Source of the DNA: Pristiophorus japonicus
Taxonomy: Eukaryota
NCBI RefSeq assembly: GCF_044704955.1
Contig: NW_027252668.1
Coordinates: forward strand, 2,790,001-2,854,000
Reading direction: 5' to 3'
Length of the DNA: 64,000 nt
Shown here: positions 8,472-9,080 of the stretch, in pieces
Position numbering within the stretch: position 1 is the stretch's first letter
Layout of the letters: each line of letters begins with the position of its first letter
The notes under the pieces: model-generated
Told to the model about the DNA's origin: nothing
The model's database searches: none
What the model saw: only the letters and a program-made list of their open reading frames with translations
Position numbers and translations under genes: made by a program

Positions 8472-9080
8472 TCACTTGGAGCTGGTGTACTTGGTCACCG
8501 CCTTTGTCCCTTCCGACACGGCGTGCTTGGCCAGCTCCCCGGGCAGCAGCAGGCGCACGGCGGTCTGGATCTCCCGGGAACTGATGGTGCGGCGCTTGTT
8601 GTAATGAGCCAGGCGGGAAGCCTCACCCGCGATGCGCTCGAAAATATCGCTTACAAACGAGTTCATGATGCCCATGGGCCTTGGAGGAGATGCCGGTGTC
8701 GGGGTGAACCTGCTTCATCACTTTGTAGATGTAGATGGCGTAACTCTCCTTCCTCGACTTTCTGCGCCTCTTGCCTCTCTTCGCTGGGGTTTTCTTGATT
8801 ACTTTCTTGGCGGGGCCTGTTTTCTTTTTTTTTTATTCGTTGCCAATCTTTCCAATTCTTTGTCAAATCACAAACGCCAGAGGTCACCTTGCACACATCA
8901 AGGATCACTCTGCGCCAATGCTCTTAGCCAAAAGGCCTAGAGCCACTGCACCGTTCCTGGAAGTACTGCAATACCAGGTTCGTGCTATGGAGGTGGATGG
9001 GTCAGGCCCCCCACACACCTCCGTGGAGGTGGATGGGTCAAGCCACCCCACCCACCTCCTATGTTCTTTTCGTCGGCCGT
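8472..9080 (-). pseudogene. H2B: Histone H2B pseudogene interrupted by a retro-insertion
   Basis: C-terminal [18 protein letters not shown]...YTSSK; extra base near 8677; 12-bp deletion near 8811; start codon ACG at 9078-9080; 235-bp insertion at 8829-9063. Confidence 0.92.
8829..9063 (-). mobile_element. Poly(A)-tailed retroposon composed of U2 snRNA-derived hairpins
   Basis: Minus strand contains ACCTGGTATTGCAGTACTTCCAGGAACGGTGCA (U2 stem-loop IV) and GGCCTTTTGGCTAAGA (U2 stem-loop I); ends AATAAAAAAAAAA; TSD AAAAGAA (plus-strand TTCTTTT at 8822-8828 and 9064-9070). Confidence 0.85.

What the first reader, a model, noticed from the sequence alone, without database searches (positions are those of the whole stretch)
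8820..9080. Two paralogous H2B genes hit independently at the same site by unrelated inserts
Seen: here the upstream junction falls after GACGAAAAGAA (TSD AAAAGAA). In the H2B at 52403 it falls after GACGAAAAGA (TSD GACGAAAAGA). The inserts share no recognisable body sequence, so these are two events whose upstream junctions are one base apart. Inference: the same or a related endonuclease made both, so the U2-like element is the non-autonomous partner or a sister family of the histone-targeting Tx1.
Basis: partly seen in the sequence, partly recalled or inferred. Interest (0 to 1): 0.75.

Follow-up and report, generated by a model that had tools for sequence, protein, structure and literature searches.

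The report
Retrotransposon hotspot inside histone H2B genes
In this large, likely shark, genome one A-rich spot at the start of histone H2B genes carries about 14 separate insertions of a spliceosomal-RNA-derived SINE and a Tx1-type LINE that are otherwise scattered genome-wide, breaking 26 of 98 copies of one H2B type, while a sister H2B type with different codons for the same residues there is untouched (0 of 80).

Summary
Insert 1 is a 5'-truncated U2/U1-derived SINE (SINEU-like; 4,661 exact tail matches genome-wide, 0.6% in histone loci held). Insert 2 is the 3' end of a dispersed Tx1-type LINE with a U2 head. Neither is histone-specific. Yet a census of 165 H2B starts shows a true hotspot at G^AAAAGAAA (codons 4-6): 12 first hits plus 2 stacked re-hits, from several SINE and LINE subfamilies, on separate host lineages, and none further down the coding region. 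It is about 80 times hotter than another recurrent site (13 of 15,028). A neighbouring H2B type reading AGAAGAAA is unhit (0 of 80, against 26 of 98). SINE and LINE share exact sites elsewhere, so one machinery is likely. Best mechanism (inferred): relaxed Tx1 nicking, plus poly(A) priming on the T-tract, plus open histone 5' chromatin; sequence models alone do not explain the size of the effect. Not found in nine literature searches.

The parts
8472..9080 (-). H2B pseudogene (MADEKK type): start codon reads ACG, 12-bp deletion and +1 frameshift downstream, interrupted by the SINE
9064..9070 (-). upstream TSD copy AAAAGAA, followed by one extra C at 9063
8829..9062 (-). 5'-truncated SINEU-like element (positions about 117-344 of the 344-nt full form) with poly(A) tail; truncated just after the Sm-site-like T run
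8947..8979 (-). U2 3' stem-loop piece inside the SINE
   Evidence: Rfam U2 alignment of full-length copy L003; same letters located in window
8922..8937 (-). second copy of the U2 5' stem-loop piece inside the SINE
8822..8828 (-). downstream TSD copy; the hotspot G^AAAAGAAA
51495..52403 (-). second H2B gene (AAAAGAGAAC variant), interrupted after codon 6 by the LINE; downstream frame otherwise open
52384..52397 (-). upstream TSD copy, 14 bp
51867..52383 (-). 3' 517 bp of a Tx1-type LINE (end of ORF2, 3' UTR, poly(A)); one event shared by 4 paralogues
51853..51866 (-). downstream TSD copy, 14 bp with one G>T change; nick 4 nt upstream of the hotspot
46171..47591 (+). 3' 1.4 kb of another Tx1 subfamily (77% to insert 2) inserted at the H4 start codon; one event in 4 paralogues
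46155..46170 (+). upstream TSD of the H4 insertion (16 bp, one mismatch to 47592-47607)

Best explanation
The A-rich stretch at H2B codons 4-6 is a shared insertion hotspot of a genome-wide U2/U1-derived SINE and a genome-wide Tx1-type LINE, both likely inserted by the LINE's ORF2 protein, which likely nicks there with loose sequence preference and likely primes reverse transcription by pairing the RNA's poly(A) with the target's T-tract, likely helped by open chromatin at histone gene starts. Shown: 14 insertions with 3' junction at G^AAAAGAAA or one base upstream (12 SINE, 2 LINE; 12 first hits, 2 stacked re-hits), one more LINE 4 nt upstream, variable TSDs (0-17 bp), dispersal of both families, and no hits in the sister H2B type. 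Inferred: that the LINE mobilises the SINE; that the A4-G-A3 tract, not just the gene, makes the site hot; that histone 5' chromatin adds a further factor. Filled alleles then spread by duplication of cluster units (one event in 10 copies).
For: Census: 15 of 92 anchored H2B copies filled at the site and 4 at -4; 26 of 98 MPEEKKPA-type copies filled. Events differ in subfamily (83-99.6% to reference), truncation point and TSD and fall on separate host lineages mixed with empty copies in an 86-sequence flank tree. No SINE or Tx1 match in the H2B coding region downstream of the site in any fetched copy. Sister type ATGCCTGAAG^AGAAGAAA in the same C9 units: 0 of 80 filled in the 15 nt read. Other recurrent site: 13 filled (3 SINE loci, 10 LINE) against 15,015 empty, 0.09%, versus 12 of 165, 7%. 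Partnership: identical sites used by both families; U2 heads on both. A weight matrix from 44 non-histone SINE sites puts the hot site in the top 1-2% of 2,460 positions and the sister site lower (4.2 and 3.2 against at most 1.7), and its top site (-207) is an observed insertion not used in training. The hot site is one of 2 closed-snap, A-rich sites in each 1,290-bp H2B unit (model from PMC3649969). Seven off-site SINE events in at most 997 kb of histone loci, 0.8-1.3 expected (P 2e-5 to 4e-4), mostly near promoters or starts.
Against: The matrix ranks 25-47 positions of the unit above the hot site, including coding positions never hit. An A5 run at the same codon of H2A scores higher (5.0) and is unhit in 43 H2A starts held. 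Seven other closed-snap A-rich sites per histone quintet were not seen hit. Only 1 of 44 dispersed SINE sites has 7 of 8 A after the nick, and such sites are 0.15% of background positions, so A-tract priming cannot alone give a roughly 100,000-fold excess over the genome mean. Most dispersed sites have C or T before the nick (36 of 44), H2B has G. Chromatin state and expression were not measured. The window's own LINE nick at -4 scores poorly (-5.6). Stacking is not special to H2B: 4 of 46 unbiased loci are tandem. Only 5 sister-type genes were read in full (4 intact).
Confidence: 0.68

Rival explanations
1. A dedicated H2B-targeting Tx1 subfamily exists whose endonuclease reads a longer H2B sequence and carries SINEs in trans, while its relatives are dispersed.
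For: The excess is far above what the matrix and A-tract explain; H2A's A5 run is unhit; crocodilian Tx1-Mar families and SINEU share preferred regions in one target (PMC4494074). The L299-type and H4-type LINE subfamilies were not searched for dispersal.
Against: The three LINEs at or beside the site are three subfamilies, 74-81% alike; two were searched and are dispersed; all three are truncated, no full-length copy sits at the site; SINE hits span old and young subfamilies.
Confidence: 0.14
2. Selection filter: insertions occur across histone genes, but only those at the very start (clean nulls) survive, since mid-gene hits would make harmful truncated histones.
For: Empty copies are mostly intact genes (41 of 44 and 23 of 28); better-scoring coding positions are unhit; both H4 hits are in the first nine codons.
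Against: It cannot explain one 5-nt window, 0 of 80 in the sister type, 0 of 43 H2A and 0 of 31 H3 starts, or repeat hits at the same base in already broken copies.
Confidence: 0.08
3. One or two old insertions were spread and reshaped by gene conversion and deletion, mimicking many events.
For: Amplification is real (10, 5, 4 and 4 copies of single events); E2 and E3 have sister hosts and 96% alike SINEs; E6 nests among E11 hosts.
Against: TSDs match each host's own H2B subtype and differ in length; SINE and LINE both occur; filled lineages are scattered among empty ones.
Confidence: 0.03
4. The locus factor is RNP traffic, not chromatin: the SINE RNA keeps an Sm site, is handled like an snRNA and meets histone loci at Cajal or histone locus bodies.
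For: U2 Sm-site-like run at positions 108-114 is retained; 17 of 52 5' ends stop at 112-127; off-site SINE excess in histone loci.
Against: The LINE, without that run in its aligned U2 head, also hits the site three times; no RNA or protein data; a stable hairpin begins at the same place. Nuclear-body biology here is recalled, not from a call.
Confidence: 0.07

Closest known systems
SINEU (crocodilian U1/U2-headed SINEs; Kojima 2015, PMC4494074)
   Same: U2- and U1-derived head, under 500 bp, internal oligo-T, poly(A) tail, frequent tandem insertion, shared target preference with Tx1 families that themselves carry U2 heads.
   Different: The paper reports SINEU only from crocodilians, preferring a Mariner transposon (13-90% of copies). 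Here the host is likely a cartilaginous fish, the family is very young (99-100% alike top copies), over 99% is outside histone loci, and the hotspot is in a protein-coding gene. Common ancestry not tested.
Keno and Tx1-Mar (Tx1 clade)
   Same: Apurinic-type endonuclease plus reverse transcriptase; full-length copies carry U2 positions 1 to about 44, ending just past the Keno insertion site given in PMC6136364.
   Different: Keno inserts in U2 genes; 0 of 55 dispersed copies read here have a U2 3' flank. This LINE is dispersed, with hot sites in H2B and a tRNA-array spacer.
Human L1/Alu target-primed reverse transcription and the snap-velcro priming model (PMC3649969)
   Same: Poly(A) tail, 8-23 bp TSDs (median 14), 5' truncation; hot site has four terminal T plus more upstream.
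   Different: Dispersed sites here favour C before the nick and only two A/T after it; the model was measured for L1, not Tx1, and predicts modest gains, not a single-gene hotspot.
Target-specific non-LTR elements of multicopy genes (R2, Utopia, Keno and others; PMC4640811)
   Same: Recurrent, same-orientation, same-base insertion in a multicopy gene, with stacking.
   Different: That paper lists rRNA, spliced-leader, tRNA, snRNA genes, transposons, microsatellites and telomeres as targets, not histone genes; and here under 1% of copies use the target.

Membership tests
SINEU | head derived from U1 or U2 snRNA | tested here: met
   Rfam U2 63.2 bits, E 3e-12 (above gathering 46); U1 piece E 0.0024, below gathering
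SINEU | short (<500 bp), non-coding, multi-copy family with shared structure | tested here: met
   344 nt; 4,661 exact tail matches; shared composite structure
SINEU | retroposed: poly(A) tail, TSDs, 5' truncation | tested here: met
   TSD found at 44 dispersed sites; no TSD found at others, e.g. 8 of 19
SINEU | mobilised by a Tx1-clade LINE | tested here: inconclusive
   shared exact sites and U2 heads; no shared 3' body; no assay
SINEU | no internal Pol III promoter; upstream-driven transcription | not tested
   internal T5 run seen; no promoter scan; no read data obtained
SINEU | homology to crocodilian SINEU-1/2/3 | not testable with these tools
   no Repbase or crocodilian sequences available
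Tx1 clade | ORF2 with apurinic-type endonuclease, RT and C-terminal zinc finger; ORF1 with RNA-binding and CCHC domains | tested here: met
   Pfam PF03372, PF00078; PF13966, PF23057/8, PF00098
Tx1 clade | RT phylogeny inside Tx1 | tested here: inconclusive
   no tree with reference families; a named hit is 'transposon TX1 149 kDa protein', 33% over 99% of the searched region; human L1 ORF2 also matches, E 3e-72
Keno | inserted at the fixed site of U2 genes | tested here: not met
   0 of 55 dispersed LINE 3' flanks read as U2; U2 genes themselves were not surveyed
Target-specific element for histone genes (over 20% of flanks, criterion of PMC4494074) | more than 20% of copies in the target | tested here: not met
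   SINE 29 of 4,661; LINE 4 of 30 (one event) and 1 of 30; two further subfamilies not searched

The most novel reading that the evidence does not exclude
A Keno-descended Tx1 machinery in a shark has a real, sequence-read preference for histone H2B starts, the first protein-coding multigene target of this clade; it drives histone gene death, and synonymous codon choice at Glu3-Glu4 (GAG GAA versus GAA GAG) makes an H2B gene vulnerable or immune. Its cargo is an independently born SINEU that travels as an Sm-bound particle.
Probability: 0.3. Interest if true: 0.8.

Novelty: new variant of a known kind. Interest (0 to 1): 0.62.

Why it matters
It shows an intermediate state between random and target-specific retrotransposition: under 1% of copies go to the target, yet the site is hit often enough to break 26 of 98 copies of one H2B type, a concrete cause of birth-and-death in histone clusters. 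The genome supplies its own control, a sister gene with the same EEKK residues and different codons that is unhit, which makes the sequence rule testable with two oligos. It also extends SINEU, described from crocodilians, to a young, likely active family in a likely cartilaginous fish, where the open question of how promoter-less snRNA-headed SINEs are transcribed could be tested.

Tried and rejected
1) H2B 5' transduction: full-length LINE 5' ends share 9-10 nt with the bases just upstream of the hotspot. Rejected: the whole 50-nt extension matches the spacer of a 1,240-bp tRNA tandem array. 2) My guess that the array nick site resembles the H2B site: rejected, the LINE junction there is GC^TCTTT. 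3) Genome-wide motif as sole cause: the site ranks 26th and 48th of 2,460. 4) A-run plus gene start as sole cause: H2A unhit. 5) Stacking as proof of H2B specificity: dropped, 4 of 46 dispersed loci are tandem, 3 with target sequence between units; counts are given as first hits. 6) An H3 pattern search gave 0 matches; H3 was surveyed from cluster stretches instead (31 starts). 7) Sequencing runs: no RNA holder listed for the tRNA-array unit; no read data were obtained, so expression, polymorphism and unassembled copies stay open. 8) Rfam on the window insert gave only a chance prion-pseudoknot match. 9) Earlier scan findings: three look-ups, nothing. 10) PMC85248 (Tx1L endonuclease) is not held. 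Rows left out: 17 of the 92 anchored copies lack the A4-G-A3 context (variants, deletions, truncations, one CR1-type insert) but stay in the denominator of 165; 12 of the 98 MPEEKKPA copies were not fetched and were read as unfilled from matched letters only; the 80 sister copies were read over 15 nt upstream of the anchor only; L136 (two SINEs at -15) is counted off-site.

Full report
Setting. The window is part of a histone gene region (six Histone3 stem-loops; H1, H4, H3, H2A, H2B frames) on contig C2056 of a 5.92-Gb genome. The host is inferred to be a cartilaginous fish from genome size and a 73% partial protein hit to a shark sequence; this was not tested further.

Checking the observation. 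H2B-1 (8472-9080, minus) reads ...GACG AAAAGAA C [SINE] poly(A) AAAAGAA AAC..., so the 7-bp TSD is right. H2B-2 (51495-52403, minus) has a 14-bp TSD, hidden in the window by one substitution but perfect in paralogues L033 and L034, and 26 of 26 dispersed copies fix the element boundary. The upstream junctions are 3 nt apart and the 3' junctions at least 4 nt apart. The inserts share no body sequence.

Insert 1. It belongs to a young dispersed family: 816 candidates, the 40 scored 99-100% alike, and 29 of the 30 loci fetched outside histone genes. The full form is 344 nt: U2 5' end, a U1-like piece, the U2 Sm-site region, a doubled hairpin, the U2 3' end, a second U2 5' piece, a unique tail and poly(A) (fold z -4.6). 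An exact 23-mer of the tail occurs 4,661 times, 29 of them in the histone loci held.

Insert 2. It is the 3' end of a 5.8-kb LINE with ORF1 RNA-binding and zinc-knuckle domains and an endonuclease-RT ORF2, with a Tx1-named relative among the hits. Full-length copies carry U2 1 to about 44 near the 5' end (Rfam E 8e-10), as expected of a Keno descendant (PMC6136364 passages). The family is dispersed: 2,584 candidates; of 30 loci, 4 are one duplicated H2B event and 26 lie elsewhere. A second subfamily found at the H2B site (L063) is dispersed too: 1,641 candidates, 29 of 30 loci non-histone. The H4 insertion at 46171-47591 is one event in four paralogues.

The census. An anchor 20-30 nt downstream of the site found 92 H2B copies, all fetched: 15 filled at G^AAAAGAAA, 4 at -4, 51 empty with A4-G-A3, 5 empty with a variant, 17 other. 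A second pattern found 98 MPEEKKPA-type copies, 25 shared with the first set; 26 are filled; 60 more were fetched, one was already held, 12 were read from matched letters only. Grouped by subfamily, truncation point, TSD and host lineage these are 14 insertions at the site or one base upstream: SINE E1 (10 copies), E2, E3, E4, E5, E6, E7 with E8 stacked on it (5 copies) and E9 stacked in one of those, E11 (4 copies, -1), E12 (this window), E13; LINE E10 (2 copies) and E14. That is 12 first hits (11 if E2 and E3, whose hosts are sisters, are merged) and 2 re-hits. The window's LINE is a fifteenth event at -4. Because poly(A) merges with the A run, 'the site' is a 5-nt window. Some unplaced contigs may be alternate haplotypes, which inflates copy counts but not grouped events. 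No SINE or Tx1 match lies in H2B coding sequence downstream of the site in any fetched copy. Off-site SINE events in all histone loci held number seven: -15, two subfamilies at one antisense base near -250 to -280, -207, the H2A-H2B spacer, the H2A promoter and H4 codon 9, against 0.8-1.3 expected. Among starts held, H4 (67) has two events, H2A (43) none in the coding start, H3 (31) and H1 (20) none.

Controls. A sister H2B type in the same C9 units encodes the same MPEEKK with GAA GAG in place of GAG GAA; 0 of 80 are filled over the 15 nt read, against 26 of 98 (Fisher 4e-8 on non-independent copies; on 9 or 8 first hits the chance that all fall on one type is 0.005 or 0.008, hand arithmetic). 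Another site used by both families, in a dispersed repeat, has 13 filled against 15,015 empty, so H2B at 12 of 165 is about 80 times hotter, and roughly 100,000 times the SINE's mean per-base rate of 4e-7. The filled count for that repeat needs seven pure A and is a lower bound.

Mechanism. Shown: poly(A) tails, variable TSDs and truncations, the marks of target-primed reverse transcription; exact sites shared by SINE and LINE. Inferred: the LINE's ORF2 inserts both. Dispersed SINE sites give a weak motif, C or T before and A then A/T after the nick (44 sites); the hot site is in the top 1-2% but not first. It is also a closed-snap, T-rich primer in the sense of PMC3649969, and the sister site is not. 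Against sufficiency: H2A's A5 run scores higher and is unhit, other A-rich sites in the quintet are unhit, and only 1 of 44 dispersed sites is so A-rich. A locus-level factor or longer recognition sequence is therefore needed; the off-site excess near promoters points to open histone 5' chromatin, which I could not measure. I put 0.68 on this combined reading, 0.14 on a dedicated H2B-targeting subfamily, 0.08 on selection, 0.07 on Sm-driven traffic, 0.03 on conversion.

Comparison with print. PMC4494074 (read: parts 1, 3 and 4 of 5, plus term passages; 'histone' 0 and 'shark' 0 occurrences; supplements not seen) describes SINEU from crocodilians only, mobilised by Tx1-Mar, often tandem. PMC4640811, PMC6136364, PMC3649969, PMC5499810 and PMC5381603 were seen as term passages only. 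Nine answered searches listed no paper whose title or abstract start points to a shark SINEU or to a Tx1 or SINE hotspot in histone genes; most listed papers were not opened. The library lacks most subscription papers and Repbase, where such families may already be entered. Kojima and Fujiwara 2004 was not seen, only cited by those papers.

Verdict. New variant of a known kind, interest 0.62.

Noticed in passing
SINE copies L148-L177, L402-L420: 5' ends cluster: of 52 units, 25 start at 1-26, 3 at 59-91, 17 at 112-127 and 7 at 157-164. The 112-127 group is just 3' of the Sm-site-like run (108-114) and at the foot of a long hairpin; reverse transcriptase may stall at a bound Sm ring. The window's insert is of this class.
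   Followed up: partly
G000:C1 from 475.60 Mb; L371-L401: A 1,240-bp tandem array with three tRNA genes (Arg, Met or Leu, Ala) per unit; 2,191 matches of a spacer motif genome-wide. Full-length Tx1 5' ends carry 50 nt of its spacer, and two Tx1 copies are stacked at one spacer base at the array edge, so a source copy likely sits there.
   Followed up: partly
L104 and L123, about 250-280 bp upstream of H2B: Two different SINE subfamilies inserted antisense at the same base: a second, weaker recurrent site.
   Followed up: partly
L002 and L041: A SINE and a Tx1 copy at the same base of another repeat (it looks like an LTR-retrotransposon gag region; label recalled, not tested).
   Followed up: no
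L066: An antisense CR1-type insertion a few bases downstream of the hotspot in an H2B variant, joined through a short match to its own tail repeat.
   Followed up: no
window about 51160-51370: A 210-bp CR1-type fragment 3' of H2B-2, shared by all four paralogues that carry the Tx1 insert, confirming block duplication.
   Followed up: partly
window about 5000-5550 and 6363-6680: The H1 and H4 of the first cluster unit appear frameshifted, so this unit seems decayed as a whole.
   Followed up: no
C9 201-229 Mb: About 75 dispersed histone units, many with two H2B types and partial H3 and H4 pieces, apparently spread by segmental duplication.
   Followed up: partly
window 32444-33205: A C2H2-type zinc-finger open frame on the minus strand (label from the repeat pattern, not scanned).
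   Followed up: no
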